IMG/VR virus record: IMGVR_UViG_3300031716_000008
Span: 1 to 59,019 of that record
Length of the DNA stretch: 59,019 nt
Strand: one strand, 5' to 3'
From: a virus
Lineage: Duplodnaviria; Caudoviricetes
Below, one piece after another: positions 9,626-25,088 of the stretch; the first letter of the stretch is position 1, and each line of letters opens with the position of its first letter. A program made the position numbers and the translations under genes. The notes under the pieces are model-generated. The model searched no databases. It had not been told where the DNA came from and was given only the letters and a program-made list of their open reading frames with translations.

Positions 9626-9968
9626 AGAGCTGATTCATCTTGTCGTCGTCGGACAGCTTCTGGCCGGCGACGCGGAGCGGCTTGGGATTGCGTGTCCAAC
9701 CCGGTACCAGGGCGTCTACTTCCTCGGCCGACCGCGACAGATCGGTGAAGCCCTGCACCTTGACGAAGACTTCGTCCGAGCCTTCTTTCACGACCACGGC
9801 CTGTACGACGTTGTCGAAGGTAGAGTTCGGCCCCGTGACGTTTGGGGCGTAGCCGGTGAGCAGCAGGTTGGGGAATGGCGGGCATGGTAGCTCCACCTTC
9901 CTCTCGTACAGCCAGAACGTCTGCTTATTGTCCAGAACGGCGAATTGGAGGGTGACTGGGTACTTCAT
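9618..9968 (-). CDS. hypothetical protein
   Basis: In-frame ATG 9968 (MKYPVTLQF...) of ORF 9618..10154. Confidence 0.6.
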   Translation of the reverse strand: MKYPVTLQFAVLDNKQTFWLYERKVELPCPPFPNLLLTGYAPNVTGPNSTFDNVVQAVVVKEGSDEVFVKVQGFTDLSRSAEEVDALVPGWTRNPKPLRVAGQKLSDDDKMNQLFN

Positions 9969-10209
9969 TTTTGCGGGGCAAGTGGGCGGTGGCGTTGGTA
10001 AGGCTACCCGTCTGCGGCACGGCCGCAGTTGTGGTGCCGGCAGCGACAGCAGCACGCTCGCGATCGGCGATCTCCTGCCGCTTGATCGGCACGTCGGACG
10101 GGGCTTCGAATCCCAGGCGAACTTTGTCGCCCATGACCTCGACGACGGTGACAACGATGTTGTCGCCGATTAGGACACGTTCATCACGCTTGCGGCTCAG
10201 TACTAGCAT
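9925..10209 (-). CDS. csrA: carbon storage regulator CsrA/RsmA family RNA-binding protein
   Basis: MLVLSRKRDERVLIGDNIVVTVVEVMGDKVRLGFEAPSDVPIKRQEI is the canonical CsrA pattern; GGAGG SD upstream. Confidence 0.93.
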   Translation of the reverse strand: MLVLSRKRDERVLIGDNIVVTVVEVMGDKVRLGFEAPSDVPIKRQEIADRERAAVAAGTTTAAVPQTGSLTNATAHLPRKNEVPSHPPIRRSGQ

Positions 10210-10239: not shown

Positions 10240-11124
10240 TTAGGGGGCGAGATCGATCGAGCGGGTGCGGCCCGACTCGTCTTCGGCAGCCTCTATGGCG
10301 GCCTCGTGTAAGTCAATTTCTTCGTACTCGGCGACGACACCGATCAGCCAGTCGCCCAGCGCCTGCTCGTCGTTGGTCCGGAGATCGAATTTCGTAATCG
10401 GTACGCCACGATCGGCGACGTAGCCGTGCCAGCCGACGTGGGATGGCGTAATGGTGAGCGACAGCTCCCCCTGGTCTCCTCCGAACACAAACGTGATGCG
10501 GGGAGAATTCGTCATCGGGTCGACGTTTTGCAAGTCCTCATCCGGCGGTACAGCGATAAGCTGCCCGCAACGACGGAAGCGAACACCGGCGTCACGCAGG
10601 TGGTGAAACAGCGACAGCGCTATAGCCAGGCGGGCGGCCCGGGAGTTTACGATCGTCTGCGCTGTCTCGGCAGCGACCTCGGCCTGCTGAATCTTCGCCG
10701 CCCGCGATCGTTGCAGACGCTCGGCGAACGGCACCGCCGTCTGCTGGGCCGTCAGCTCGAAGTTATCGCCGATGTAGACCCAGGCGGCAATTTCTTTCGC
10801 GGTCTCGCGATCGATGCCGCGGGCCACGCAGAACTCCGTCACACCGCGGCCGATCATTTCCTTCAGGCAGTCCTTGTTGTACTCGACGTTGTCCCCGTCT
10901 GGCACTTCATTGATCAGTCGCACTAGCCCCCCGAACAGCCGCGTGAGCGCCTCCGGAGCGTAGTACGTCCGTGCGAGGTAGTTCAGGTGCAGACCCATTG
11001 CCGCACACAGCGAGTAGAACGTGTCGTAGTCGTCCGCATTGCTGCAGCCGATGCGCTTCGCCTCTTCGCGCATGCCGTGGAACACGTCGTTGCGAACGGC
11101 GACTTGGGGCCAGTGCTCGCTCAT
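10240..11124 (-). CDS. hypothetical protein with shared C-terminal tag (SGRTRSIDLAP)
   Basis: ATG 11124 coupled to upstream stop; C-terminal motif shared with neighbours. Confidence 0.65.
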   Translation of the reverse strand: MSEHWPQVAVRNDVFHGMREEAKRIGCSNADDYDTFYSLCAAMGLHLNYLARTYYAPEALTRLFGGLVRLINEVPDGDNVEYNKDCLKEMIGRGVTEFCVARGIDRETAKEIAAWVYIGDNFELTAQQTAVPFAERLQRSRAAKIQQAEVAAETAQTIVNSRAARLAIALSLFHHLRDAGVRFRRCGQLIAVPPDEDLQNVDPMTNSPRITFVFGGDQGELSLTITPSHVGWHGYVADRGVPITKFDLRTNDEQALGDWLIGVVAEYEEIDLHEAAIEAAEDESGRTRSIDLAP

Positions 11125-11873
11125 GCTGCCAGGTCCTTGTGGATTCTGCCGAGCAAGGCTGCCTCCCATACGGGGCGGCGCGCCTGCCAGCAGATGCCGC
11201 ATTTCGTACAGGTGATCTCCGGGTCCCGGTTGACGCCTTGCTCGGGCGGACAGACCTGAACCCCGTTTGCCTTTTTGAGTATAGTCTTCGTGCTCGCCCG
11301 GAACACGAGGTCACAGTCATCCGGCGCCGTTTGGGCGTCGGCGTCGTCGATCGCCATGTAAGCGCGACGCACGCCCTGCACTAATGGTGCCGGACCGGTC
11401 TCGCGGTCGAGCGACCACCAGAGCTGCACGTTCGGCAACCGGGCCAATCTTAACAACTCGGGGAAGATGTCATCGCACCGCCAGGAGCGGGTGTAGCAAA
11501 AAATTTGCACTTGCGGGACAAGGCCGGCTATCCGCACCCATTTCTTGGTGTATCCCACGTCGTAAAAGTCGCCAGCGCAGTGTACTCGCAATACGCGAAC
11601 GAACTGCCCGCGTAGAGCGCAGGTCATCCATTCGACGAAGCGATCGGTTTGTGAAAATTGGAAATTGCGCTCGTGTGACCTCCTAACGGACGGCATCACA
11701 AATAAGCCGCCCGTAGCGTAACACTCCCCGGCGCACAGATGCGATCTCCCTGGGCATGTGGTTATTGCCGGTATGGACCATGTGTGTATCAACGGCCCGA
11801 GTTTTTCGTTACCCAGCGGCAGTTGCTTGGGTACGTCTTGGTAAACCGGTAATGTGATTCCAGCTCCAGCCAT
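11121..11873 (-). CDS. Gp88-like phage protein (Cys-rich)
   Basis: GNEKLG..TWSIPAITTCPGRSHLCAGECYA..RVHCAGDFY..CYTRSW..CTKCGICW pattern. Confidence 0.7.
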   Translation of the reverse strand: MAGAGITLPVYQDVPKQLPLGNEKLGPLIHTWSIPAITTCPGRSHLCAGECYATGGLFVMPSVRRSHERNFQFSQTDRFVEWMTCALRGQFVRVLRVHCAGDFYDVGYTKKWVRIAGLVPQVQIFCYTRSWRCDDIFPELLRLARLPNVQLWWSLDRETGPAPLVQGVRRAYMAIDDADAQTAPDDCDLVFRASTKTILKKANGVQVCPPEQGVNRDPEITCTKCGICWQARRPVWEAALLGRIHKDLAA

Positions 11874-12423
11874 GAATAATGTTGCTTAGTTGAGTACGTC
11901 CGATCTCGCGGTAGTCCTTTCGAATTGAGGACATTTTTTCGCCATCGTTGTGGCGTTGTACTATGTCTCGCACGGCTGCTTCGGTAAGTGCCGCGTTGTA
12001 GTGTGCTTCACCAATAACCATGCCGCCGTTGCGTCTTTGATCTTCATGATTATCGTGCGGCGTACCCCAGTAAACATTGTCGAGCCGGCAATCGCCGGGG
12101 ATGTCATTTTCGTGACACGCTTGCCGCCCGGGCGGTCGCGGCCCGACGAAAGTCAGCAGCACTAGGTGATGCACCTTCCGTTGGTACTTCTTTCCGTCTT
12201 TGTACAGCGTTAGCTGGAGATAGCCGCTGCGCACCAGCGTGGCCGGTTGCATCTGTCGCCACACACCGCCTTGGGTGAACTTGCAGCCGCGACCACCTCC
12301 GACTGGCCAGATACGTTTCCAGCACGTCCACACTGAGCCATCGGTGCCGACGCGGTAGCCCGGGAACCCTGGAATCGATGCATAGATCGTTTCACAAGTC
12401 GATTGCGCGGGCCTCTTTGCCAT
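11809..12423 (-). CDS. NUMOD4/HNH homing endonuclease
   Basis: IPGFPGYRVGTDGSVW (NUMOD4), VHHLVLLTFVGPRP..CHEND..NVYWGT..N (HNH), C-terminal HTH; ATG at 12423. Confidence 0.85.
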   Translation of the reverse strand: MAKRPAQSTCETIYASIPGFPGYRVGTDGSVWTCWKRIWPVGGGRGCKFTQGGVWRQMQPATLVRSGYLQLTLYKDGKKYQRKVHHLVLLTFVGPRPPGRQACHENDIPGDCRLDNVYWGTPHDNHEDQRRNGGMVIGEAHYNAALTEAAVRDIVQRHNDGEKMSSIRKDYREIGRTQLSNIIHGWSWNHITGLPRRTQATAAG

Positions 12424-13105
12424 AGTCTTCCTCTTGATTGACCACCGTCGGCTTGAGCAGGAACTCTTGGAGTTCCAGTTGTTCAGCCTTGACCGCTGGG
12501 TCGTTCCAAGGTTCGTAGCTGACCAGCTCGTCAGCCTTGTTGAGCAAGTACCGCTTGATGTAGTCACACACATCAGGCGGGAAGGTGAGCGACCGCCGGA
12601 GGCTCTCCTGCAGCAGAGCGCGGAAGGCGGTCTGCTGTCGCAGCCACCGCCGGGCGGAGAGGGCGAGGACGGCCTCCAGCGGCACCTGGTCGTACATTTG
12701 GTAGAGCGACTCCACATTGCGCACGCACCAGATGACGGTCTGCCAGAGATGCTGGTCGACCATATCGTGAATACGATATACGCCTTGCGGCGTGGACCAG
12801 GTGTCGGACTGGAACCAGTCGATCAGGAACTCCGGCCGCGGGCGTTGTGGGGCGACCGCGACTTCGGACGGGGCGATGGCGTTCCGGGCTGCCTCGGCCC
12901 GGCGTTCCGCCGCCTCCCGCATCCGTCGCGTTACCATGCCGCCGAAGAGCCGATCGTTCTCGCGGCTCTGCTCGTAAGAGGCGCTCCGCTGGTTGTCCCG
13001 GCCGGGACCAGGGCCAAACGCCGCCCGCAGCCGTGCGTCGGCCGCACGTTCCTCCGGTGTGGGGAACAGGCTTTGGAGATCGTCGGCGTTGATTTCGTCA
13101 GACAT
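12392..13105 (-). CDS. hypothetical protein with shared C-terminal tag (YGKEARAIDL)
   Basis: 237 aa ORF in coupled chain. Confidence 0.7.
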   Translation of the reverse strand: MSDEINADDLQSLFPTPEERAADARLRAAFGPGPGRDNQRSASYEQSRENDRLFGGMVTRRMREAAERRAEAARNAIAPSEVAVAPQRPRPEFLIDWFQSDTWSTPQGVYRIHDMVDQHLWQTVIWCVRNVESLYQMYDQVPLEAVLALSARRWLRQQTAFRALLQESLRRSLTFPPDVCDYIKRYLLNKADELVSYEPWNDPAVKAEQLELQEFLLKPTVVNQEEDYGKEARAIDL

Positions 13106-13107
13106 GG

Positions 13108-13524
13108 TTAATCCAGCATGATCGCCCGTAGCTCGCGGGTGCCTTCCACCGTCGGTATGTGCTTCTGCACATCACGGACCGTGCGGATCGGAATAGGTTC
13201 GTTCTCGACCTTCTCCTTATCGAAGCAAGGCCGAGTGCCCTCCATGTCCTGCGTATGGCAGCAAGTCCGCTTGGGGCTGCCCTTCTTCTTGATCGTCCAG
13301 CCGGGGCAATTACAGCTCGTTCGCCGCTCGCCCGTGGTCGGATCAATCCAAGTGATAGTAGTATATTGCGTCAATCCGTTGGACGACAGCCAATGCTGCA
13401 CGTCCGTGGGCACCTGCGGGCGGTCGTTCACGTGAGCGACGCCGCCGATGAAAGGAACTCCAACGTCCGACTGGATGAACGGTTGGAGTTCCTCGGTTGC
13501 CTGTTGTTGTCGTAAGCGTGCCAT
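13108..13524 (-). CDS. SWIM-type zinc-finger protein with shared C-terminal tag (GTRELRAIMLD)
   Basis: SCNCPGW...RTCCH SWIM pattern; TAATG coupling at 13524. Confidence 0.7.
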   Translation of the reverse strand: MARLRQQQATEELQPFIQSDVGVPFIGGVAHVNDRPQVPTDVQHWLSSNGLTQYTTITWIDPTTGERRTSCNCPGWTIKKKGSPKRTCCHTQDMEGTRPCFDKEKVENEPIPIRTVRDVQKHIPTVEGTRELRAIMLD

Positions 13525-14591
13525 TAGATGTCGATGCCGCGTAGCTCGCGGCCGAACTCCTGGATATCCGACGCAGCGCTGGCTGCGTTGTTGATCTCGT
13601 TCTGGACGGACTGTAGGGCCGCTGAGAAACCGTTGTTTGCGGCCGTCACGTGGTCGAGCGTGGTGGGCGTGGTAATGTTCAGCCGCCGCTCCAACGACTT
13701 GATCTGCGTCATCAGGTCCTCGTTGGCGACGAAGTCGAACAGGCGGATCTTGGCGATCGCTGCGTGGACCGGCTTGAAACTCTTGGCCGTGACGTTGCCG
13801 TCGCGGGCAATCAGCTCCTGCAGGTTCGCCAGGGCTTCCGCCAGCTCCTCGCGGGGGCCGGCGACCATCGACTCGATCGCCTCTTCCACCTTGCGATGGA
13901 CGGCGTCGCGAACGATGACGTTGTGGTTGGCCAGCTCGTCCATGTTGACGTCCTGGCCAGCGCCGCCGGCCAATTCGATAGGCACGGCGTCGACGTAGAA
14001 CTTCTTCCGCATCTCGCTGGCGTCGTGCGGCACCTTGCTGTAGACCGCCTCCCACACGTCCGGATTATCGGCGGCGATCTGGCGATAGATGTCCGCCAGG
14101 TCACTGCAAAACTCATCGGCCATGCGGGCGAGCTGGTAGGCGACCGACTGCTGCTCCAACGGGAGCAACTGCCCGTCGCCACCACGTTGACCCAGCGGGG
14201 CGCCGTTCTCGTTCACAGGACCGAGCAACGCGGCGAAGTAGGTAGCTCCGACGCTTCTCGGGATTATTCGAACGCCATGTATAGGAAAGGGAACGGACCA
14301 AAGCTCCCCCAGCCGTTTTTGCTTCCGCTCGATCTCCTGGAAGCGTTTCTTCCAGGCCTTGCCGGCGCTGTCGCGCGGGCAATCGTCTTTGAGTAAGATC
14401 GATCGCGGCGTCGTGGTGTCCCCGTCTTTGACTGCCTTGCCTTCGAGGGCGACGCCGATCTTTTCTTTGGAGATTTGATAGTAGCCCCGCCAGCATCCGA
14501 ACGTGGGGGACAAGAGCAGCACGCGTTGCTGCAGCGCCTGTTGACGGGCATGAAGCGTGTCAACGGGCTCGTCGGCGAGCATGGTTGTCAT
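13524..14591 (-). CDS. DUF3150-like helical protein with shared C-terminal tag (FGRELRGIDI)
   Basis: 355 aa; N-terminal CWRG, SVPFPIHGVRIIP, helical C-terminal half; neighbourhood of Ycf46-like ATPase. Confidence 0.6.
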   Translation of the reverse strand: MTTMLADEPVDTLHARQQALQQRVLLLSPTFGCWRGYYQISKEKIGVALEGKAVKDGDTTTPRSILLKDDCPRDSAGKAWKKRFQEIERKQKRLGELWSVPFPIHGVRIIPRSVGATYFAALLGPVNENGAPLGQRGGDGQLLPLEQQSVAYQLARMADEFCSDLADIYRQIAADNPDVWEAVYSKVPHDASEMRKKFYVDAVPIELAGGAGQDVNMDELANHNVIVRDAVHRKVEEAIESMVAGPREELAEALANLQELIARDGNVTAKSFKPVHAAIAKIRLFDFVANEDLMTQIKSLERRLNITTPTTLDHVTAANNGFSAALQSVQNEINNAASAASDIQEFGRELRGIDI

Positions 14592-14812
14592 TTCAAATAG
14601 CGAAGAACAATCGGTGACAGTAGCTTAACCAGCGTGTGGACGGCCAGGTAGATCGGCCACAGTGTTGTAATCGCATAGCACGTGAACAACACTCGCTGAA
14701 AACAGTAATGCCGCTGCTGGTGATATACCGGCGAGGCATCCAAGACGCGGGACGTCATGATAGTCCCGACAATGAGATAGGCCCACAGTCCGACGAAGTA
14801 GGTTGCTGTCAT
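14588..14812 (-). CDS. small two-TM membrane protein
   Basis: Two hydrophobic stretches, LWPIYL motif. Confidence 0.55.
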   Translation of the reverse strand: MTATYFVGLWAYLIVGTIMTSRVLDASPVYHQQRHYCFQRVLFTCYAITTLWPIYLAVHTLVKLLSPIVLRYLK

Positions 14813-14818
14813 CGGTTT

Positions 14819-15496
14819 CTAAGTACCAGGTTTGGGAGCTTCTTTTGGCGGCAGCGTGTCGTGACTGGCCAGCTCCGGTACGACGTCTTCTAGCTTTTCA
14901 TTGATCTCGATCAGCCTGAAGCCCTCGTCCTCGTCGTCGGCCCAGTACTCCTTGTCGAAGAAGGTGCGGCCGTCATCAAGAATGTAAAAGTAGCCGACTG
15001 CGTCGTAACCGCCGATCGGATGAATGAATATCGCCCAGCCGGCAGGCTGCCTCTCGATCTGCACGTCGGGCACATCGTAGTCGTCTATGTCCTTGGAGCC
15101 AAGAACGATTCGTACGCCATCGGACTCCAGGAGCAGGATGGACTTTTCGGGCTCCCCCCATTCGGGCTTCGTGTCGTTGGCGACCTCGTTGGGGTACAAC
15201 CGGCCGTTGTACGTTGGTACGTCTAGGGTTAGCTCACGGAGAGCCTTGCCGAAGGTAGGGATATCGCCGACGGCGATCGGCCCGGTCAGGGCGAAGTCGT
15301 CGAAGTCGGTCGGGTCGGCCGGCGGCTCATCGCCGGGCAGCAATTCGATCCCCAGCGACTTGGCCAGCTCCTTGTAGAACGCGTCCCGCTCGTCGGTAAA
15401 GGCTTCGGGGACGTTCTTCGGGTCGATGAGGACCGGGTACTGCTCGTACGCCGATCCCTGACCGTGGGTGAGGATATACAGCTTGGCAATGCTCAT
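14819..15496 (-). CDS. acidic hypothetical protein
   Basis: 225 aa ORF in coupled chain. Confidence 0.65.
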   Translation of the reverse strand: MSIAKLYILTHGQGSAYEQYPVLIDPKNVPEAFTDERDAFYKELAKSLGIELLPGDEPPADPTDFDDFALTGPIAVGDIPTFGKALRELTLDVPTYNGRLYPNEVANDTKPEWGEPEKSILLLESDGVRIVLGSKDIDDYDVPDVQIERQPAGWAIFIHPIGGYDAVGYFYILDDGRTFFDKEYWADDEDEGFRLIEINEKLEDVVPELASHDTLPPKEAPKPGT

Positions 15497-15765
15497 GGCG
15501 GGTTTGGTGAAGTGTCCCAGCCCAATAGCCGGCGGATCTTCGGATGGTCGCGATCGAGCTTGTTGTTCTGCTCGGCCGCGGTGATGATGTCCGTCGACAT
15601 CGTACGAAGTAGCTCGCCCATCAAACGCAGGGCGTCGCGATCACTGGTTTGCAGGGCCGTCTCCGCCATCAACGTCCAGCCGTTGAATAACCGGCCCTGT
15701 ACTTGCCCCTCGCCCACGTCCTGTAGGTGGATGTTCAGATTGCGTAGGGGTTGGATGGTTTGCAT
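15493..15765 (-). CDS. hypothetical protein
   Basis: 90 aa ORF; stop overlaps next start. Confidence 0.55.
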   Translation of the reverse strand: MQTIQPLRNLNIHLQDVGEGQVQGRLFNGWTLMAETALQTSDRDALRLMGELLRTMSTDIITAAEQNNKLDRDHPKIRRLLGWDTSPNPP

Positions 15766-15919
15766 CTTCAGGATGGCTTAGGAGGTGCTCCGCCAATTTG
15801 ATCTCAAATGCGGCGAAGTCGAAGTCGGTAAAGACCCGCTCAGTCTGCGGCAGGAACCGCACGATCTGCGGATTCACCGGATGCCTCGCGTACAGGTCCG
15901 TGATTTTGGGCAGGGGCAT
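15641..15919 (-). CDS. hypothetical protein (overlaps both neighbours)
   Basis: GGAG upstream of ATG; 3' half overlaps 15493..15765, so the call is uncertain. Confidence 0.35.
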   Translation of the reverse strand: MPLPKITDLYARHPVNPQIVRFLPQTERVFTDFDFAAFEIKLAEHLLSHPEDANHPTPTQSEHPPTGRGRGASTGPVIQRLDVDGGDGPANQ

Positions 15920-16355
15920 TGGTAGTCTCCGATTGGATACAGGGTTCGCAGAAGGGGATACCGTGGGCTTTGAGCCACACTACCTCTTCCGCCAGGGCAG
16001 TTTCTTTGTCGTCGTAAGGGCCGAGGACGGGGCCGTTGACGGGCAGCATGTCCGCGTACCACCGATCCTTCGGTAGCAGCTTCCGCAATTGACCGCTCTG
16101 CTCGGTCGTATTACGGGCAAGCAGTATTTTCCGCTCGGTGTCGAACGGTAGCTTCTCGTCTTTGTAGGGGCCGTGTTCGAAGAGCCAAGCAACCGCGGCG
16201 TCGGACAGATTGAAATTCGTTTCGACGTGCGACGCTCGCCGTGTCTCAATGTCGCCCTTGCTCGCAGTAGCAACCGCCCGTAGCACCTTCCTGGTTTTCG
16301 GGCTGTCAATGGCCCGTATCTCCCCAGTCGGCCCGACCACTATGTTCTCAGCCAC
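15840..16355 (-). CDS. 'RRASHVE...WxADxxPVxGPVLGP' family protein that accompanies DUF1257/DUF2997/AAA clusters
   Basis: RRASHVE and WYADMLPVNGPVLGPYDDKETALAEEVVWL motifs, recalled from Planctomycetota mobile clusters; about 45-aa insertion between them. Confidence 0.7.
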   Translation of the reverse strand: MAENIVVGPTGEIRAIDSPKTRKVLRAVATASKGDIETRRASHVETNFNLSDAAVAWLFEHGPYKDEKLPFDTERKILLARNTTEQSGQLRKLLPKDRWYADMLPVNGPVLGPYDDKETALAEEVVWLKAHGIPFCEPCIQSETTNAPAQNHGPVREASGESADRAVPAAD

Positions 16356-16359
16356 GCAT

Positions 16360-16545
16360 TTACTCCCTGGTTAATTCTCCGGTAAGCAACGCCCGTTCGA
16401 TACGGGCATCGTCCCAACAGACACGCTCTTTAATTCGTTTAATCTGCCGTCTGTGTACACCGAACTGCGCGCCGAGTCTGGTGAGCGTACCCTCGGCGTC
16501 GCGTATGTCTAGTATCTGTCGCAATGTGAGTTTGATATTGCCGTC
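16360..16545 (-). pseudogene. remnant C-terminal HTH of an HNH endonuclease
   Basis: Frame without a clear start: GNIKLTLRQILDIRDAEGTLTRLGAQFGVHRRQIKRIKERVCW, similar to the tail of the 11809..12423 HNH. Confidence 0.45.
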
Positions 16546-16670
16546 CGCATGATCTCTTCGATGTCGTGCGTCTCAGCGACGGTGCAACCCGTCGCCTCCA
16601 TAATGATATCACCATACGGCGATCGCCGGCTCGCTTTGTAGGCGGCGACTTGCTCGGAGCTAAAGTCCAT
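16509..16670 (-). CDS. 53-aa hypothetical protein, possibly truncated
   Basis: Read by hand: MDFSSEQVAAYKASRRSPYGDIIMEATGCTVAETHDIEEIMRT... Confidence 0.45.
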   Translation of the reverse strand: MDFSSEQVAAYKASRRSPYGDIIMEATGCTVAETHDIEEIMRTAISNSHCDRY

Positions 16671-16980
16671 CTTTCAAAAACTTGTCGCAGGCCAGCGACG
16701 CGTCGCCGCGGTTGGTAATACGGTAGTATCGCCGAAATATCGATTGGTCGTCGACGGCGATCAAACGGTCGAAAGCAGCCACGTACTGATCTTCGACCGC
16801 CAATTCTCGCATCAGCACGTACAGCTCGACTTGACTCATGCCGAGCCCTTTAACCTGCAGTACCTGGCCTAGCGTGTAGCCGCTGACAGGTTGATTTTTG
16901 CGTAGATCATCCAGGATCGCGTATACGCGATCCTCCCGAAGCTGTTTCCGATCAAACCATTCGCGGAGAAACAGATACAT
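16660..16980 (-). CDS. winged-helix (PadR-like) protein
   Basis: SGYTLGQVL..ELYVLMREL..RRYYRITNRG resembles PadR wHTH. Confidence 0.55.
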   Translation of the reverse strand: MYLFLREWFDRKQLREDRVYAILDDLRKNQPVSGYTLGQVLQVKGLGMSQVELYVLMRELAVEDQYVAAFDRLIAVDDQSIFRRYYRITNRGDASLACDKFLKDGL

Positions 16981-16982
16981 GG

Positions 16983-17666
16983 CTAACCCAGATCAATGGC
17001 CCGGCACTCGCGGCCGTAATCGGCCAGTTGCACCAGGGCGGCTTGTACGGCTTTCGCCCGCTTGGACTCCTCCTGTTGATGGTACGGCGAGTTGACCTTC
17101 TCCAGGTCTCGCAACATACCCTCGGCGACATCGCGGTGGCTCCAGGCCGGGCCGACGGTGATGCCGCTATTCTCCCGATCGCAGATGACGAACACCTGCC
17201 GGCCGCCTAGTTCCCGGAGGACGATATAGAACCGTGGCAACAACATAGCGCAGTCCCAGATTTCCTCGACGTCGCGGATCACCAGTCGCTGGCAATCCTC
17301 CGGCAGATCGGCGAACTCGATCCGCCGGCCGCAGAGACATAGCCGGCCGACGGCCGGGGGCCAATGCCAGCCCGGCTTCTTCCGATGGACCGTGTCGATC
17401 GGCTGGTACTTGCTGGTGCCGTGCATCCCGATCCCTTGCGGGTGGAAGGGCTCGGCCGACATCGTGACGTAGGGATATTCGGGAGCACCGCCCTCAGCGC
17501 GCAGTACTGATGATCGACCGGTGTAGACCACCGTGTAGCGATCCGCCGATTCGGTCGGCGTGCCGTGGTTGTCGTAGCAGCGGATGTACCGCGGCACGCC
17601 GCCGGGAATAAAGCGATCCCGGCGGCGCTGGATTTCTTCTGGGCTGCGTTTTTTGGCCTTGGCCAT
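16983..17666 (-). CDS. hypothetical phage protein with shared C-terminal tag (YGRECRAIDLG)
   Basis: RCYDN..ADRYTVVY..PFHPQGIGMHG..DLPEDCQ domain plus C-terminal extension. Confidence 0.7.
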   Translation of the reverse strand: MAKAKKRSPEEIQRRRDRFIPGGVPRYIRCYDNHGTPTESADRYTVVYTGRSSVLRAEGGAPEYPYVTMSAEPFHPQGIGMHGTSKYQPIDTVHRKKPGWHWPPAVGRLCLCGRRIEFADLPEDCQRLVIRDVEEIWDCAMLLPRFYIVLRELGGRQVFVICDRENSGITVGPAWSHRDVAEGMLRDLEKVNSPYHQQEESKRAKAVQAALVQLADYGRECRAIDLG

Positions 17667-17893
17667 TAGCCGCCGGTGTGACCGCCGCCGTCGTGAATAC
17701 GTTCGACACCTTGCTCGGTCTCGAAGAATTCTTGCTTGAGCTGTTCATCGCGTTCGCCGCCGATGTTTTGCATCAAGGCGTCGGTCACCGTCTTGCAGGT
17801 GCCGCCTATGTAACCGGAAGCCTCAACCCTGATCTGGCTTTGTCCGGTGGAAATGCCTTTGCGCGGAACAACAATCTCAATTCGTCGTGACAT
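17666..17893 (-). CDS. DUF2997 family protein
   Basis: IEIVV..IRVEASGYIGGTCKTVTDALMQNIG..LKQEFF; adjacent to DUF1257. Confidence 0.75.
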   Translation of the reverse strand: MSRRIEIVVPRKGISTGQSQIRVEASGYIGGTCKTVTDALMQNIGGERDEQLKQEFFETEQGVERIHDGGGHTGG

Positions 17894-17903
17894 AATTGGG
17901 GGC

Positions 17904-17937
17904 AAAAGAAAACTGCCCGCCGAAGACCGGCGGGCAG
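17904..17937 (-). terminator. intrinsic terminator
   Basis: 10-bp stem CTGCCCGCCG/CGGCGGGCAG, 5-nt loop, followed by TTTTCTTTT on minus strand. Confidence 0.75.
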
Positions 17938-17973
17938 GGTGATGTGAAAGGTAAGCGACGCTCCGTTACCGGC

Positions 17974-18348
17974 TTAGCCGGAGTAGTCGACGAGCGCCAG
18001 TTTCACCGAGCCGTCTTCGAGTTCCTGCTCCTGATCGACGGACAGGCCCTGGGCCTGGGCTTGCAACCGCAGCTCCTCGATCGAGTAACGCTGCATCAGC
18101 TTGTCCAGCTCGATCTGGTCACCCCAAGTCCCGCCGTAGTTGTCGTAGCTGCACATGCCCGTTTCGGTGTTGATCACCACCGGCTGGTGCCAGTTGGGCA
18201 ACTTCAGCGAGCGACCCTCGGCGTGGCTGCCATCGAACATACGGTGCCGACCCTTGGCCGACAGTTCGAGCCCCAAGCGATCGCAGGCGATCTCCAGGGC
18301 GGCCTCGTTCGTGCACTTGATGTTCTTGACCTGCACTGTGTGCGACAT
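17974..18348 (-). CDS. DUF1257 (Ycf35-like) protein
   Basis: MSHTVQVK..ALEIACDRLGL..LPNWHQPVVIN..YDNYGGTWG..LMQRYS..EQELEDGSVKL. Confidence 0.8.
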   Translation of the reverse strand: MSHTVQVKNIKCTNEAALEIACDRLGLELSAKGRHRMFDGSHAEGRSLKLPNWHQPVVINTETGMCSYDNYGGTWGDQIELDKLMQRYSIEELRLQAQAQGLSVDQEQELEDGSVKLALVDYSG

Positions 18349-18444
18349 GATTTCCTTCTCCAAATTCAGAATCGGTCACAAGTAAGCCGCCAACGGCGGC
18401 TGCCGGGTTCGGGCAACGCCCTTAAATCATACCCCGTGTAATGA

Positions 18445-20115
18445 TCAGTTGTCGAGATCGACTGCCCGTTCGCGACCCCGACGACCGGCTGGGGCCTCGG
18501 GGCTGCTGACCGGGCGAGCCCGGTCCTTGCAGAACGTGCGAATCGCCGAGACGCTGTCGGCGTCCCGCTGGGCCATAGGCGTAACGGAGCCAGCGGCCTG
18601 GTACAGCTCATCCCACGTCGGCGTACCGCTCTCGCGAGTCTCGTACGCTTGGTAGCGAGCTTCGACCACGACGGCCTCGATCTCGGAGCCGACGAAGTCC
18701 TGCATCTTCTTCAGCAGCTCGTCCCAGTCCTCCTTGCCGAATTCGAGCTTGGCTGGGTCCACGCCGCGCTTCCGCAGGTGGATGTCCAGGATTTGCTTAC
18801 GCTCCGCCATCGTCGGCAGATCGGTGTACCAGACCGCGTCGAAGCGACCAGCGCGGAGGAACTCCGGCGGGATGCCATGGGTCCGGTTCATGGTCATGAT
18901 CACGAAGGTGCGATCCTGCTTTTCCGACAACCAGGTCAGGAACTTGCCGAACACGCGACGGGTGACGCCGCTGTCGCCCTGCGAGTCCACGGCGCCGCCG
19001 AAGGCCTTGTCAGCCTCATCGACGAGCAGCACGCAGCCCCGTTGAGCTTCGATCTGGTTGAGCGCGTCACGCATCCGCTGCTCGGACTCGCCCACCAGGT
19101 GACCAAACACGGCACCGACGTCGAGGATGTAGCCCGGCAGGCCGAGCAGCTTGGCGCAGGCCTTGGCGAGATACGACTTGCCGGTCCCCGGCACACCCAG
19201 GAGCACGATGCCCTTGGGATTGTCGATGTTCAGCTCGCGAGCCTTTCGCTCGTAAGCCCGTCGCCGGCGATCGAGCCACGGGAACAAGAGATCGAAGCCG
19301 CCGATCTCCTCGCGGCTGGCCATGCCCGCTTCGGGGATGTAGGTCAGCACTTCGCTCTTCTTGATGATCGCGGCCTTCTCGTCCTTGATCGTGCTGAGCA
19401 TTTCGCGGCAGAAGCCGCTGTGCTGCACGAGGCATCGCGACAGGGCATTCTCGGCCTCGGTGGAGGTCAGGCCCATCAAGCAGGCGACGATCTCGTCCTT
19501 CAGCTCGTCGCTGCAGATGGCTTTGCCCTTGCCCTTGGCGCTGTTCTCGATCGACTGCTGGACGAAGTCAACGGTCTTATGGAGCTTCGTCTCGTTGGGC
19601 AAGGCGAAGTCCAGGATCGAGATGCACGTCTTCAGCTTGTCGGGGATATTCAGCTTCGGGCTGATGATGATCAACGGCCGTTTATGCCGTTTGTTGACGA
19701 GCTTGTTCTCCTCGGTCAGGGTCTTGATCGCCCGCACGTTGGCCGGCTCGCGGAAGAAATCATCCAGGTCACGAAAGACGAAGATAAAGTTCTCGCGGAG
19801 GGCGGTCATCGCGTTGTCGTCGAGTAGGAAGCGGAGGGCCTCGTTGGGCGAGAAGAACCGCTTCGGATTGGCTAGCTCGCTAGGCAGGTCGGTGCCGGTG
19901 AAGCCCTGCACGAAGTCCCACAGCACCACGCGGTGATTCATTTTGCGGCCGACCCGCGAAATCTCCGCTTGGACCCGGGCCTCTTCGGACGTCGGGATGA
20001 ATAAGCACTGATAGCCAGCGCGAATATGCTCTTCCAGATTGATCTCAAACTCGCTGGCAGGTTGCTGGGTGTCCGGACCCTGGGGCGCAGCGACAGCGAC
20101 AGACGTTCTCGACAT
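18445..20115 (-). CDS. Ycf46-like AAA+ ATPase (inactive N-terminal AAA-like domain + active AAA domain)
   Basis: SEEARV N-domain, GIVLLGVPGTGKS Walker A, VLLVDEADK Walker B, PPEFLRAGRFD SRH; ends RGRERAVDLDN; GAGGA before ATG 20115 (alternative start 20127). Confidence 0.9.
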   Translation of the reverse strand: MSRTSVAVAAPQGPDTQQPASEFEINLEEHIRAGYQCLFIPTSEEARVQAEISRVGRKMNHRVVLWDFVQGFTGTDLPSELANPKRFFSPNEALRFLLDDNAMTALRENFIFVFRDLDDFFREPANVRAIKTLTEENKLVNKRHKRPLIIISPKLNIPDKLKTCISILDFALPNETKLHKTVDFVQQSIENSAKGKGKAICSDELKDEIVACLMGLTSTEAENALSRCLVQHSGFCREMLSTIKDEKAAIIKKSEVLTYIPEAGMASREEIGGFDLLFPWLDRRRRAYERKARELNIDNPKGIVLLGVPGTGKSYLAKACAKLLGLPGYILDVGAVFGHLVGESEQRMRDALNQIEAQRGCVLLVDEADKAFGGAVDSQGDSGVTRRVFGKFLTWLSEKQDRTFVIMTMNRTHGIPPEFLRAGRFDAVWYTDLPTMAERKQILDIHLRKRGVDPAKLEFGKEDWDELLKKMQDFVGSEIEAVVVEARYQAYETRESGTPTWDELYQAAGSVTPMAQRDADSVSAIRTFCKDRARPVSSPEAPAGRRGRERAVDLDN

Positions 20116-20143
20116 TGGGTTCCTCATTAAAAAAGACAGGCGA

Positions 20144-20812
20144 CTACGTGACGGCGCCTAGCAGACGTTGTACAGCCTGGCTCGTATCGCCGCCACGGAG
20201 GGGCAACTTATCGAGCTGGGCGCTGAGTGCTTGGAGGGATTGACGGACGTCGTCATTGATGTCGTCCGTTTTACCCTGTTCAAACTGGTAGACCATGTTG
20301 AACATCTCCGGATCGTCGGAGAAGTCGGTCGAGACGGTAGCGACGGGATCACTATCCCGCATGGCGATCCGCAGCACGTCTGGCGGCTGCATGATGCCTT
20401 CGGCGTCTAACGCCTTACCGATATAAGCCCTGATCTCATCCGTGAAGGGCTCGTCCTCCTCGGGCGGCGACAGAAGCAAAGCCTCCGTCACGCCCCAGGC
20501 GATCTCGCCGGCGTCGGCCGGGTTCCATTGGTTGGGTTCGAGGATATCGCCGCACAGCACGTTGCAGAAATTGATGAAGTCGGGCAGCGATTTGTAAAAG
20601 TCTTCGCCGGTGACGATCTTGATGGCCGTCTCCAGGCGGTCGAAGTTAGCTTGCGGGAGGGCGACGTTGAAGTCGGCCTCGATCTCCGCCAGCCGGGTCT
20701 CGGGGAGCCAGTCGAAACCTGCGGTGCCGTAGGTATCGACGAACAGGACTAACAGCGTCGTGCCGAAGCTGCCAGGGTCAATCCAGAGGGTTTTGGCATC
20801 CGGTGCTGGCAC
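20144..20812 (-). CDS. hypothetical protein (acidic, helical)
   Basis: 222 aa ORF with coding-like composition. Confidence 0.7.
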   Translation of the reverse strand: MPAPDAKTLWIDPGSFGTTLLVLFVDTYGTAGFDWLPETRLAEIEADFNVALPQANFDRLETAIKIVTGEDFYKSLPDFINFCNVLCGDILEPNQWNPADAGEIAWGVTEALLLSPPEEDEPFTDEIRAYIGKALDAEGIMQPPDVLRIAMRDSDPVATVSTDFSDDPEMFNMVYQFEQGKTDDINDDVRQSLQALSAQLDKLPLRGGDTSQAVQRLLGAVT

Positions 20813-21284
20813 TGTCTTCCCTGACGCAGCGGGAATAATTCCGACGGAACAGCTCCGCCAGATTATAACCGATCGTCTCCAGTGGAGTCACCGGCAGCTT
20901 TTGGTGCTCGCCGGTTTCCAGATTCAGCCAACCTACGGCGTCGGTGCAAGTCACGAAATGCGTATCCGCAAATGCGAGTGTTAATTGACTTTCGGGCGGA
21001 TGGCCAACCCGCAATTCAGGTTCGAGCGTATTGGCTTGCCAGTACCAGCCGCCATAATGCCGCAGTGTGCCGCGGTAGCTGTTTATAATGAGCTGCACGG
21101 CCTCGACGGAGAGCCACGGCAGCTTATTCAGCAGGACGTAGGTCCAGGCTATTAAACAACTGCCGCCGTCGAACTCGCCGCACGGGTGTAGCCTGAGCAA
21201 GTCCAGTAGCCATACGCGCTTTAGGCCAGATAGCTCTGTGACCGGTATTACTACCTGTCTGGGAAATGGTTGTCTACCGCTCAT
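20778..21284 (-). CDS. hypothetical protein
   Basis: ATG 21284 coupled to upstream stop; 3' part of ORF 20778..21761. Confidence 0.6.
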   Translation of the reverse strand: MSGRQPFPRQVVIPVTELSGLKRVWLLDLLRLHPCGEFDGGSCLIAWTYVLLNKLPWLSVEAVQLIINSYRGTLRHYGGWYWQANTLEPELRVGHPPESQLTLAFADTHFVTCTDAVGWLNLETGEHQKLPVTPLETIGYNLAELFRRNYSRCVREDSASTGCQNPLD

Positions 21285-21550
21285 AAACCTCCGGTGACTT
21301 TGTAATCGACTCGGTAGGCGGCCACGGTGCCGCCACGACCCATCATCAGGTCTTCGCTGGTGTTGCCCTCGGCGTCCACCGGATAAGCGGAGCCGTTGCC
21401 CGAGATGCCCGGCCGCGAGATACGCGCGCCGGCGGCCTGCAGGGCGTGTCGCTTGGCGTCCGCGGACATGACTTCCGACATGGTTTCGCCTTGAACGATG
21501 ATCGTACCTTCGCGATCGCTGCAGTTGTTTCCTACGACGGTGAGAGCCAC
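21281..21550 (-). CDS. hypothetical protein
   Basis: 89 aa; AAGGAG SD upstream of GTG. Confidence 0.7.
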   Translation of the reverse strand: MALTVVGNNCSDREGTIIVQGETMSEVMSADAKRHALQAAGARISRPGISGNGSAYPVDAEGNTSEDLMMGRGGTVAAYRVDYKVTGGL

Positions 21551-24737: not shown

Positions 24738-25088
24738 TCAAAACGAAAAACGTCTCGGCTTAGTGCTCTTAGACGGTCTGTAGAATATCACGCACCGGCC
24801 GACGGGCCAACCTTTCTTTCCGGCGAGGAACTCCCGCAGGCATTTAACGCTGTCAGGATTGGCCCTATGGGCAGCCTTTACGGCGTCATAAAACGCATTT
24901 ACCACTTCAACGACGAGCGACCAGGTGCCGCCGCAACAGTTCTTGGCCTCGCTAGCTGTATACGCTGCCGTCTGTAGAAGCCCCTGCTCCCGCAGACCGG
25001 CGAACAGCGGGCACGCCTCGTAGAACTCCGGATTCCGGAGGAGCTGCACCAGGTGCTGGCGGTCGAGGATCAGCGTGCGGCTTTTCAT
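24738..25088 (-). CDS. small basic Cys-containing protein
   Basis: 116 aa; KNCCGG; resembles 23403..23708. Confidence 0.7.
   Translation of the reverse strand: MKSRTLILDRQHLVQLLRNPEFYEACPLFAGLREQGLLQTAAYTASEAKNCCGGTWSLVVEVVNAFYDAVKAAHRANPDSVKCLREFLAGKKGWPVGRCVIFYRPSKSTKPRRFSF

What the first reader, a model, noticed from the sequence alone, without database searches (positions are those of the whole stretch)
10240..20115. Six unrelated proteins around a Ycf46-like AAA+ ATPase share one C-terminal peptide tag (G-[RK]-E-x-R-[AGS]-[IV]-D-[LI])
Seen in sequence, the extreme C-termini are: 10240..11124 SGRTRSIDLAP*; 12392..13105 YGKEARAIDL*; SWIM protein 13108..13524 EGTRELRAIMLD*; DUF3150-like 13524..14591 FGRELRGIDI*; 16983..17666 YGRECRAIDLG*; and the AAA ATPase RGRERAVDLDN*. 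The proteins are otherwise dissimilar. The motif always ends 0-2 residues from the stop. Synonymous codons differ between copies (CGC GCA ATC GAC TTG versus CGG GCC ATT GAT CTG), so selection is on the peptide rather than a DNA repeat. All six lie within 10 kb, and the full motif is absent from the other called genes. Established: AAA+ machines and their adaptors often read short terminal tags (ssrA for ClpXP, HbYX). Inference: this is a phage-encoded address-label system in which tagged clients and the ATPase dock on a common partner (DUF1257, DUF2997, a host protease or a hub), or the ATPase remodels the tagged clients. I know of no description of it.
Basis: partly seen in the sequence, partly recalled or inferred. 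Interest (0 to 1): 0.9.

Follow-up and report, generated by a model that had tools for sequence, protein, structure and literature searches.

The report
Shared docking tail, phage AAA+ module
Six otherwise unrelated proteins of this uncultured 59-kb phage, one of them a Cdc48-like ATPase, end in the same short peptide, which is this phage group's version of the conserved tail of a widespread but unstudied ATPase module and most likely addresses them all to one docking site that is still unidentified.

Summary
Six minus-strand genes between 10240 and 20127 end in G-[RK]-E-x-R-[AGS]-[IV]-[DM]-[LI], 0-2 residues from the stop. The strict core occurs 5 times in the 58 genes I called, always at a C-terminus (0.003 expected). 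Codons differ between copies, and the proteins share nothing else.

The tag is conserved. It marks 30 of 296 genes in 14 related phage stretches against 2 of 1183 in cellular ATPase loci. The DUF3150-like, ATPase, SWIM-like and 12392 families carry it; DUF1257, DUF2997 and seven other families never do. It is modular: 0 of 92 homologues of the 227-aa protein's N-domain have it.

An R-x-h-x-h tail (h = hydrophobic) is a trait of the whole ATPase family: 55 of 150 representatives against 1-7 in control windows. The ATPase folds like Cdc48/p97.

Best reading: a short docking or recognition peptide tied to the ATPase/DUF1257/DUF2997 machine. The receptor is unknown and no binding is shown. Five full-text searches found no description. 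This scan met the same phenomenon before on other DNA with other tag variants.

The parts
18445..20127 (-). Ycf46-like / Cdc48-like AAA+ ATPase (556 aa from ATG 20115, 560 aa from 20127). It has a degenerate D1-like N-half and an active AAA domain. The disordered C-terminal tail ends RGRERAVDLDN*.
   Evidence: Pfam AAA E 3.5e-25. phrog_8638 E 6.7e-118. AF2 model pLDDT 81.5 with residues 540-556 below 50. Foldseek gives full-length matches to Cdc48/p97/Rix7/AFG2. The N-half has IPTSEE where a P-loop would sit (read from the sequence).
17974..18363 (-). DUF1257 (Ycf35-like) protein. Never tagged. Candidate receptor or partner.
   Evidence: Pfam DUF1257 E 5.5e-5, 23.8 bits against a cut-off of 22.2. 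0 of 11 family members tagged. Alignment A5 includes the cellular neighbours.
17666..17905 (-). DUF2997-like small protein. Never tagged. Candidate receptor or partner.
   Evidence: Pfam DUF2997 E 2.3e-4, 21.4 bits, below the cut-off of 24.1. It aligns with the DUF2997-like genes that lie next to cellular ATPases, with invariant G, G, G and C. 0 of 9 tagged.
16983..17666 (-). 227-aa protein: a phrog_4496-like N-domain plus a C-terminal extension of about 90 aa found only here, ending YGRECRAIDLG*.
   Evidence: phrog_4496 E 5.3e-7 over residues 18-134. 92 homologues cover only about 41-65% of the query, and 0 of 92 carry the tag.
15840..16355 (-). 'RRASHVE' protein (171 aa from GTG 16355). Conserved module member, never tagged at the C-terminus. 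It has an internal GEIRAIDSP near the N-terminus.
   Evidence: Family present in 11 stretches, 0 of 11 tagged. N-terminal sequences compared.
13524..14591 (-). DUF3150-like protein (355 aa), the most constant tag carrier. Ends FGRELRGIDI*.
   Evidence: Pfam DUF3150 only E 0.055. BFVD fold search top hit is a 'DUF3150 domain-containing protein', E 4.7e-8. Of 63 homologues, 34 carry the strict tag and 58 carry R-x-h-x-h within 4 residues of the end. AF2 pLDDT 86.6 with tail 349-355 disordered.
13108..13524 (-). SWIM-like zinc-finger protein (138 aa). Ends GTRELRAIMLD*.
   Evidence: CNC...CCH pattern read in the sequence. No Pfam SWIM hit. Family tagged in 6 of 7 stretches, mostly as RGIMLD.
12392..13105 (-). 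237-aa protein of a family with variable length (177-538 aa). Ends YGKEARAIDL*.
   Evidence: Family present in 8 stretches: 4 with the strict tag, the rest with variants such as RRNISFEE, RDIKID and RALDV. No Pfam, PHROG or NCBIfam hit.
10240..11124 (-). 294-aa ORFan. Ends SGRTRSIDLAP*.
   Evidence: Only itself found among 5.8 billion clustered proteins. No family hit.
20144..20812 (-). 222-aa conserved protein directly upstream of the ATPase. Never tagged.
   Evidence: Family present in 9 stretches, 0 of 9 tagged. The Atlas gives only weak leads: DUF6475 on 19% and Phage_lambda_P on 12% of cluster members, with recognition below the mark.
11121..11873 (-). GP88-family protein inside the module. 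Never tagged.
   Evidence: Pfam GP88 E 2.6e-32. 0 of 8 tagged.

Best explanation
The peptide is a short, disordered, C-terminal docking or recognition motif. Its core, R-x-h-x-h (h = hydrophobic), would put Arg and two hydrophobic side chains on one face of an extended strand. It is this phage group's version of a tail that Ycf46-like (Cdc48-like, type II) AAA+ ATPases carry in general.

In this group the same tail has been added to several unrelated proteins of the module: the DUF3150-like protein, the SWIM-like protein, the 12392 family and lineage-specific proteins. The ATPase and these proteins would therefore be addressed to one binding site. That site most likely belongs to the conserved ATPase/DUF1257/DUF2997 machine. 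The module may work at the start of phage DNA replication.

Shown: the motif, its enrichment, its conservation, its modular gain, and the family-wide ATPase tail.
Inferred: that it docks at all, that one receptor reads all copies, and where that receptor is.
For: 1. Non-random and selected as a peptide: 5 of 5 strict hits lie at C-termini against 0.003 expected, and codons differ between copies.

2. Conserved and specific. The strict tag is on 30 of 296 genes in 14 related stretches against 2 of 1183 genes in 79 cellular AAA loci (Fisher p 1e-19). 24 of 29 occurrences of the core lie within 6 residues of a C-terminus. The DUF3150-like family carries a tail in 13 of 13 stretches, 10 of them strict, and in 58 of 63 database homologues.

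3. The same families are tagged again and again, and others never: DUF1257 0/11, DUF2997 0/9, RRASHVE 0/11, 222-aa 0/9, GP88 0/8.

4. Modular. 0 of 92 homologues of the 227-aa protein's N-domain carry it, and an ORFan carries it.

5. A trait of the ATPase family. R-x-h-x-h lies in the last 10 residues of 55 of 150 cluster representatives against 1-7 of 150 in seven upstream control windows. Mycobacteriophage Dylan's ATPase ends RVLDL*. Cellular homologues end in tails such as FVPLQLE or QVRLELA.

6. Link to the partner genes. Among 31 cellular loci, 22 of 26 tail-bearing ATPases have a DUF1257 gene nearby against 1 of 5 tail-less ones (p 0.01). All 6 of 6 stretches found through the DUF3150-like protein that have enough flank also hold the ATPase and DUF1257.

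7. Exposed. The tails are disordered in both AF2 models.

8. Weak concerted variation. Tags of different families are more alike within a genome than between genomes (1.87 against 1.57 of 5 positions, permutation p 0.03).

9. The ATPase folds like Cdc48/p97 over its full length. From recall, that class is known to use short terminal motifs for docking.
Against: - There is no direct evidence of binding, and no receptor has been identified.
- The ATPase lacks a clear tag in L001, and its tag is degenerate in L002, L006 and L036.
- The distant phages SM1 and RcTiptonus have the ATPase, DUF1257 and DUF2997 but 0 of 45 genes with the strict tag.
- 4 of 26 tail-bearing cellular ATPases have no DUF1257 gene in the stretch held. 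One tail-less ATPase does have one. I classed those tails by eye.
- Family-specific flavours persist: SWIM is almost always RGIMLD; the ATPase has V at the first hydrophobic position, and 59 of 150 ATPase representatives end in Asn. The copies may therefore not be interchangeable.
- The concerted-variation signal is weak (p 0.03).
- The likeness between cellular tails (h-x-L-[QED]-L) and the phage tag is low in information.
Confidence: 0.55

Rival explanations
1. The tag is a substrate or degron signal. Tagged proteins are clients whose tails are threaded into the pore of the Cdc48-like ATPase, or recognised by a host protease such as ClpXP, Lon or FtsH. They would be unfolded, remodelled or turned over on a schedule. 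The ATPase's own tail would then be a pseudo-substrate that gates it.
For: The tails are disordered and terminal. The ATPase has the fold of an unfoldase. The tag has been appended to unrelated proteins. From recall, terminal degrons are a known kind (ssrA, MuA, lambda proteins).
Against: The tag sits on the ATPase itself across the family. The tags end in acidic or polar residues, not in the non-polar ends of ssrA-type degrons (logo). The distance to the carboxylate varies from 0 to 3 residues. The pore-loop position reads SLVG/HLVG (aliphatic, like p97 D1 from recall) rather than aromatic. No protease gene was recognised among 54 of the 58 genes tested with Pfam.
Confidence: 0.2
2. The tag docks onto a host hub rather than a phage protein. 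Candidates are the sliding clamp, SSB, DnaK or RNA polymerase. It would recruit the module's proteins to the replication or transcription machinery.
For: In other phages the ATPase module lies directly upstream of DnaB and Pol I (SM1, RcTiptonus, L338C) or near ParB, Ku and a beta-clamp gene (Dylan). From recall, clamp-binding and SSB-binding peptides are shared by many unrelated proteins. Cellular modules hold an Hsp70 relative.
Against: The tag does not fit the recalled clamp motif QL[SD]LF: it has Arg in place of Gln and no terminal aromatic residue. The same kind of tail is on cellular Ycf46-like ATPases from many phyla, and its presence tracks the DUF1257 partner genes. The tag varies between phage groups more than a motif for a conserved host hub should.
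Confidence: 0.12
3. The tag is a virion-targeting signal that packs these proteins into the capsid for co-injection. Recalled analogues are the capsid-targeting sequences of T4 internal proteins and encapsulin cargo peptides.
For: The module lies between the tail genes and the terminase region. From recall, shared terminal peptides are how cargo is loaded into HK97-fold shells.
Against: Cellular, non-viral Ycf46-like ATPases carry the same kind of tail. The tagged proteins sit in what is an early or replication module in other phages. No structural family carries the tag.
Confidence: 0.05
4. The shared ending is a chance or compositional artefact, or a DNA repeat.
For: None found.
Against: Poisson P about 2e-15. 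Conserved in orthologues. Codons differ between copies. 2 of 1183 genes in control loci.
Confidence: 0.01

Closest known systems
Proteasome-activator docking tails: HbYX of PAN/Rpt/archaeal Cdc48, and GQYL shared by mycobacterial Mpa and Bpa (recalled, from no call)
   Same: A short, disordered C-terminal peptide shared by an AAA+ ATPase and by non-ATPase proteins, which would plug all of them into one receptor. The ATPase here has the Cdc48-like type II fold.
   Different: There is no penultimate Tyr and no QYL (logo). No 20S proteasome or other ring partner was recognised in the phage (54 of 58 genes tested with Pfam). The receptor is unknown. The tag may sit 0-3 residues from the carboxylate.
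p97/Cdc48 cofactor motifs (SHP box, VIM, VBM) and the p97 C-terminal tail read by PUB/PUL domains (recalled)
   Same: Unrelated cofactors share short linear motifs that dock on one ATPase. The ATPase's own tail is itself a docking peptide. The fold is the same.
   Different: Those motifs bind the p97 N domain. This ATPase lacks it: the fold starts with the D1-like domain at about residue 22. The sequences differ. No PUB or PUL domain was found.
Ycf46 (AAA+) / Ycf35 (DUF1257) / DUF2997 gene set of cyanobacteria, plastids and other bacteria
   Same: The same three families lie side by side. Cellular ATPases also end in a conserved hydrophobic/acidic tail, and a second large protein shares a like tail (GEFDIEIE).
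   Different: The phage module adds DUF3150-like, SWIM-like, RRASHVE and GP88 proteins and lacks the Hsp70-like gene. In the phage the tail is R-x-I-D-L, and it is on four or more families. I found no function in print for the cellular set either.
Sliding-clamp-binding peptides (bacterial QL[SD]LF; T4 gp45-binding tails of gp43, gp33 and gp55) (recalled)
   Same: Many unrelated proteins end in one short peptide that docks on a hub. The setting is a phage replication module.
   Different: The consensus is not met. No clamp gene was recognised in this phage. Cellular Ycf46-like ATPases carry the same kind of tail.

Membership tests
Classical-clade AAA+ ATPase (PF00004), Ycf46-like / Cdc48-like type II architecture | AAA domain with Walker A and Walker B | tested here: met
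   Pfam AAA E 3.5e-25. GVPGTGKS and LLVDEADK are visible in the alignment. The best PDB sequence matches are VAT, Cdc48 and p97, E 1e-42.
Classical-clade AAA+ ATPase (PF00004), Ycf46-like / Cdc48-like type II architecture | Two stacked AAA-like domains (D1-D2) | tested here: met
   Foldseek aligns 525-609 columns of the 556-aa model to D1-D2 of Cdc48, p97, Rix7 and AFG2 (E about 1e-16 to 1e-17, TM 0.34-0.52). D1 is degenerate: IPTSEE sits in place of a P-loop (sequence).
HbYX / GQYL proteasome-docking tails | Hydrophobic-Tyr-X (or Gln-Tyr-Leu) at the extreme C-terminus | tested here: not met
   The six tails end DLAP, IDL, MLD, IDI, DLG and LDN. The most frequent residues in the 63-tag logo include a Tyr only at positions -5 and -2, upstream of the Arg. 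The motif definitions are recalled.
HbYX / GQYL proteasome-docking tails | A 20S-type ring receptor encoded or present | tested here: inconclusive
   No proteasome or protease family appears among the 54 of 58 genes scanned with Pfam. The host is unknown.
Bacterial beta-clamp-binding motif | Q-L-[SD]-L-F or QLxLxL (recalled) | tested here: not met
   The core is R-[AGS]-[IV]-D-[LI] with an acidic or small residue after it. There is no Gln and no terminal Phe.
ssrA-type C-terminal degron | Non-polar extreme C-terminus such as LAA-COOH (recalled) | tested here: not met
   In the logo the residue after the core is D in 34 of 63 tags, S in 7 and G in 5, and the core is terminal in 12.
DUF3150 (PF11348) | Pfam model above the gathering score | tested here: not met
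   E 0.055, 13.2 bits against a cut-off of 24.9. 6 of the 63 homologues carry a precomputed PF11348 hit.
DUF3150 (PF11348) | Same fold as proteins named DUF3150 | tested here: met
   The BFVD top hit is a 'DUF3150 domain-containing protein', E 4.7e-8, probability 1.00, TM 0.35/0.42. No PDB match reaches E 0.001.
DUF1257 (Ycf35) | Pfam model above the gathering score | tested here: met
   23.8 bits against a cut-off of 22.2, E 5.5e-5. Atlas clusters are named DUF1257, score 0.93-0.94.
DUF2997 | Pfam model above the gathering score | tested here: inconclusive
   21.4 bits against a cut-off of 24.1. It aligns with the small genes next to cellular ATPases, with invariant G17, G31, G34 and C37.
SWIM zinc finger | CxCxnCxH signature and the Pfam model | tested here: inconclusive
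   CNC...CCH is visible in the sequence. There is no Pfam SWIM hit even at E 10.

The most novel reading that the evidence does not exclude
The tags are the client or cofactor list of a phage-borne Cdc48-like segregase. The ATPase's own tail and the tails of the DUF3150-like, SWIM-like and other proteins would compete for one receptor formed by the small DUF1257/DUF2997 partners. Through that receptor the machine would assemble or dismantle a replication-start complex. Because cellular Ycf46-like ATPases carry the same kind of tail and the same partners, the phage tags would give the first experimental handle on what the Ycf46/Ycf35 set of cyanobacteria and plastids does.
Probability: 0.25. 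Interest if true: 0.9.

Novelty: new variant of a known kind. Interest (0 to 1): 0.75.

Why it matters
Ycf46-like ATPases with DUF1257 (Ycf35) and DUF2997 occur in phages, many bacterial and archaeal phyla, cyanobacteria and plastids. I found no mechanism for them in print.

A conserved peptide shared by the ATPase and several unrelated neighbours is a ready-made bait. One synthetic peptide could pull out the receptor. One small deletion could test the function. The list of tagged proteins says which proteins the machine works with.

It would also add a new case to the few known systems in which an AAA+ ATPase and non-ATPase proteins use the same terminal peptide.

Tried and rejected
1. Complex prediction. 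The chains were ATPase 1-535, DUF1257, DUF2997 and the last 40 residues of the DUF3150-like protein, each with its alignment. Result: no verdict (ipSAE 0.02 and 0.04, mark 0.32, controls not run). It counts neither for nor against binding.

2. Cis-docking of the tail. The AF2 monomers leave both tails disordered, so there is no sign of an intramolecular site.

3. DUF3150-like protein as a hidden Hsp70-type peptide binder. Several DnaK substrate-binding-domain chains appeared among the non-significant PDB fold hits (E 1-4). Profile-profile comparison with the atypical Hsp70s of cellular modules gave probability 2%. Rejected.

4. DNA-pattern scan of IMG/VR for the back-translated tag plus stop. 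One hit, in a non-coding frame opposite a called gene. It gave no information.

5. tblastn of the DUF3150-like protein against plasmids and isolate phages: no match. The profile of the DUF3150-like family (alignment A1, 58 sequences) in 401 genomes of the phylum of G001 (the genome of L038): one weak match. The host stays unknown.

6. BLAST of the genes next to the ATPase in SM1, RcTiptonus, L338C and Dylan against this clade's families: nothing significant.

7. NCBIfam, PHROGs and Pfam gave no family for four of the six tagged proteins.

The co-occurrence test therefore rests on 14 stretches, not on the 63 homologues.

9. Supplementary files of papers were not asked for.

10. Papers seen:
- Search listings only.
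- Single passages of PMC4284462, PMC10954446 and PMC12870095.
- None describes the tag.

Full report
WHAT THE WINDOW IS. The window is the whole record held: one contig of 59,019 bases, flagged as a virus record. It encodes a large terminase (GpA_ATPase, E 2.8e-10), a Baseplate_J protein and a 960-aa protein with a tail-sheath-like region. It also encodes a sigma-70-like protein, CsrA (E 1.4e-21) and a GT9 glycosyltransferase. It is therefore a tailed phage, and a very divergent one. Of the 54 of 58 heuristically called genes that I scanned with Pfam, few matched anything. The gene call is my own codon-usage heuristic, not a standard gene finder. Counts 'per gene' carry that caveat.

THE OBSERVATION.
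- The strict core R[AGS][IV]D[LI] occurs five times in 16,977 residues. Every time it ends 0-2 residues from the stop. Expected are 0.30 anywhere and 0.003 at C-termini, P about 2e-15.
- The SWIM-like protein carries the variant RAIMLD.
- The copies use different synonymous codons.
- An all-against-all BLAST of the six proteins finds only short, weak alignments, the best of them between the tails themselves (best E 0.015 over 14 residues).

CONSERVATION.
- I fetched related stretches through the ATPase (L001, L002 from IMG/VR; L036 from a genome contig).
- I also fetched related stretches independently through the DUF3150-like protein (L005, L006; L087-L100).
- After clustering the called proteins, four families carry the tag again and again:
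  - DUF3150-like: 13 of 13 stretches, 10 strict.
  - ATPase: 6 of 10 strict, with degenerate forms in L002, L006 and L036 and none in L001.
  - SWIM-like: 6 of 7 stretches.
  - The 12392 family: 4 of 8 strict, plus variants.
- Lineage-specific proteins carry it too: window 10240 and 16983, L005 157 aa, L098 167 aa, L036 91 aa.
- Eleven other families present in six or more stretches never carry it. Among them are DUF1257 (0/11), DUF2997 (0/9), RRASHVE (0/11), the 222-aa protein (0/9), the 403-aa protein (0/8) and GP88 (0/8).
- Overall, 30 of 296 genes in these 14 stretches match R.[IVL][DMEN][LIF] within 3 residues of the end. In 79 cellular loci fetched with the same ATPase profile, 2 of 1183 genes do (Fisher p 1e-19).
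- Of 29 occurrences of the core anywhere in the clade's proteins, 24 lie within 6 residues of a C-terminus.
- Among 63 database homologues of the DUF3150-like protein (33-63% identical), 34 have the strict tag. 58 have R-x-h-x-h within 4 residues of the end. 52 have the longer FG...R-x-h-x-h form.
- A logo from 63 distinct tagged sequences reads [E/R]-F-G-R-E-[F/L]-R-[A/G/S]-I-D-L-D.

THE TAG IS A MODULE, NOT PART OF A FOLD.
- The 227-aa protein (16983..17666) has 92 database homologues. They cover only its N-terminal domain of about 130 residues, and most are 125-140 aa long. None of the 92 ends in the tag. The window's protein has its own extension of about 90 residues that ends in it.
- The 294-aa protein (10240..11124) has no homologue at all, yet it carries the tag.
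- In both AF2 models the tail is disordered: ATPase 540-556 and DUF3150-like 349-355, pLDDT below 50.

THE TAIL BELONGS TO THE ATPASE FAMILY.
- The ATPase model matches type II AAA+ proteins (Cdc48, p97, Rix7, AFG2) over its whole length. The N-half is a D1-like domain without a P-loop (sequence).
- Among the 150 best cluster representatives of the family (31-60% identical), 55 have R-x-h-x-h in the last ten residues. Seven control windows further upstream have it in 1-7 each.
- 59 of the 150 end in Asn, as the window's ATPase does.
- Mycobacteriophage Dylan's ATPase ends KVRVLDL*. In Rhizobium phage L338C the protein next to the ATPase ends RRAVKL*.
- Cellular homologues (29-36% identical; Chloroflexota, Planctomycetota, Actinomycetota, methanogens, cyanobacteria) end in tails such as FVPLQLE, FVPIQLE or QVRLELA. 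In the same loci, large proteins of 648-1035 aa end in tails such as GEFDIEIE or GEFDIQL.
- Sharing a tail between the ATPase and another protein is therefore not peculiar to phages.

LINK TO THE PARTNER GENES.
- In 31 cellular loci I classed the ATPase tails by eye and searched the called genes with HMMs built from my alignments.
- 22 of 26 tail-bearing ATPases have a DUF1257 gene in the stretch. 1 of 5 tail-less ones does (p 0.01).
- The exceptions are L007, L010, L014 and L028 (tail, no DUF1257; two of these are short contigs) and L013 (no tail, DUF1257 present).
- All 10 clade stretches with enough flank hold the ATPase, DUF1257 and the DUF3150-like gene. 9 of 10 hold DUF2997; L005's may have been missed by my gene call.
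- Of the six stretches found through the DUF3150-like protein alone, 6 of 6 hold the ATPase.

CONCERTED VARIATION.
- Some genomes shift the tag in all carriers together. L093 has Leu at the first hydrophobic position in all three tags. L091 has LDV* twice. L006 has a non-acidic fourth position in both tags listed, and RAIALED lies near the end of its 12392-family protein.
- A permutation test that shuffles genome labels within families gives mean identity 1.87 against 1.57 of 5 positions, p 0.03. This is weak support.
- Family-specific flavours also persist: SWIM has RGIMLD, and the ATPase has V at the first hydrophobic position and often a final N.

HOW IT MOST LIKELY WORKS.
- The invariant positions are Arg, a hydrophobic residue two places on, and another two places after that. 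In an extended strand these three point the same way. The residue between the first two is small (A/G/S).
- That pattern fits docking by strand addition into a groove. This is an inference.
- Because the same tail sits on the ATPase throughout the family and its presence tracks the DUF1257/DUF2997 partner genes, I place the receptor in that machine. Which protein it is remains open.
- In SM1, RcTiptonus and L338C the ATPase module lies directly upstream of DnaB and Pol I. In Dylan it lies near ParB, Ku and a clamp gene. The 222-aa neighbour has a weak lambda-P-like lead. A role at the start of replication is therefore a reasonable guess, not a result.

COMPARISON WITH WHAT IS KNOWN.
- The nearest analogues are the proteasome-docking tails shared by ATPases and non-ATPase activators, the short cofactor motifs of p97, and clamp-binding peptides. 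All of these are recalled.
- The tag meets none of their sequence definitions (see the membership tests).
- Full-text searches gave only gene lists or annotations. The search terms were DUF1257/DUF2997, Ycf46/Ycf35, DUF3150, Ycf46 with phage, and shared C-terminal docking motif with AAA+ and bacteriophage (passages read). I found no description of the tag or of the module's mechanism.
- Papers outside the held library could exist.

EARLIER NOTES OF THIS SCAN.
- After forming the reading above I looked up the scan's own notes.
- The same phenomenon was reported before on other DNA with other tag variants: e1-5801686, e1-5904973, e1-5729409, e1-6076969, e1-6016521. It was also reported for cellular modules: e1-1186244, e1-2088845, e1-5300509. 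In every case the receptor was unidentified.
- These are unchecked AI notes and are not independent evidence.
- One of them (e1-5300509) gave me the Hsp70 lead. I tested it in part: Hsp70-like genes and GEFDIEIE tails are indeed in the cellular loci, but the phage's DUF3150-like protein is not related to them.

VERDICT. This is a real, conserved, modular C-terminal peptide, specific to a phage version of the Ycf46-like ATPase module. It is most likely a docking or recognition label for one receptor. The receptor and the function are not established.

Noticed in passing
window 15840-16355 and 17666-17905; L087, L093, L098, L099: The RRASHVE family and the phage-type DUF2997 family begin with the same N-terminal pattern (K-x-I-x-x-I-I-P-x-x-G-I-x-x-G). 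The RRASHVE family then carries an internal R-A-I-[YDH]-S that resembles the tag core (window: GEIRAIDSP). This may be a second shared peptide or a shared beta-hairpin.
   Followed up: partly
window 21281-21550: An 89-aa protein is conserved in 8 related stretches. Its nearly fixed C-terminus is ...AAYR-x-DY-x-x-TGGL. It matches no family.
   Followed up: no
proteins P0159, P0161, P0174, P0186 (ATPase relatives of 845-915 aa): An insertion of about 300 residues sits exactly in the Walker A loop. It begins with Cys and ends in HN[ST], which looks like an intein in the ATPase P-loop.
   Followed up: partly
150 ATPase cluster representatives: 59 of 150 end in Asn, as does the window's ATPase (..DLDN). 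The other tagged families do not share this final residue.
   Followed up: no
L015, L017, L019, L025, L026, L028, L029 (cellular loci): Cellular Ycf46-like modules hold an atypical Hsp70 of 524-544 aa and a large protein (648-1035 aa in the loci listed) that ends in GEFDIEIE, GEFDIQL or a related tail, a tail like that of the ATPase beside it.
   Followed up: partly
window 9925-10209: A phage-encoded CsrA homologue (Pfam CsrA E 1.4e-21) lies just beyond the tagged 294-aa gene. L091 and L093 hold a similar small gene in the same place.
   Followed up: no
window 42384-43166: A sigma-70-like protein with region 3 and region 4 hits: a phage sigma factor.
   Followed up: no
window 26115-27176: A GT9 heptosyltransferase-like gene sits among the tail genes (E 3.6e-12). 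Its neighbour 25085-26113 clusters with it by BLAST.
   Followed up: no
L098 11322-11760: The SWIM-like gene appears split into 76-aa and 41-aa pieces. The second piece still ends in the tag. This may be a frameshift or an assembly error.
   Followed up: no
L003 (Pseudomonas phage SM1) 11722-13290: The two proteins after the ATPase both end in a basic R-T-P-R tail (..VRTPRRR*..RGRTPR*). This may be another clade-specific shared ending.
   Followed up: no
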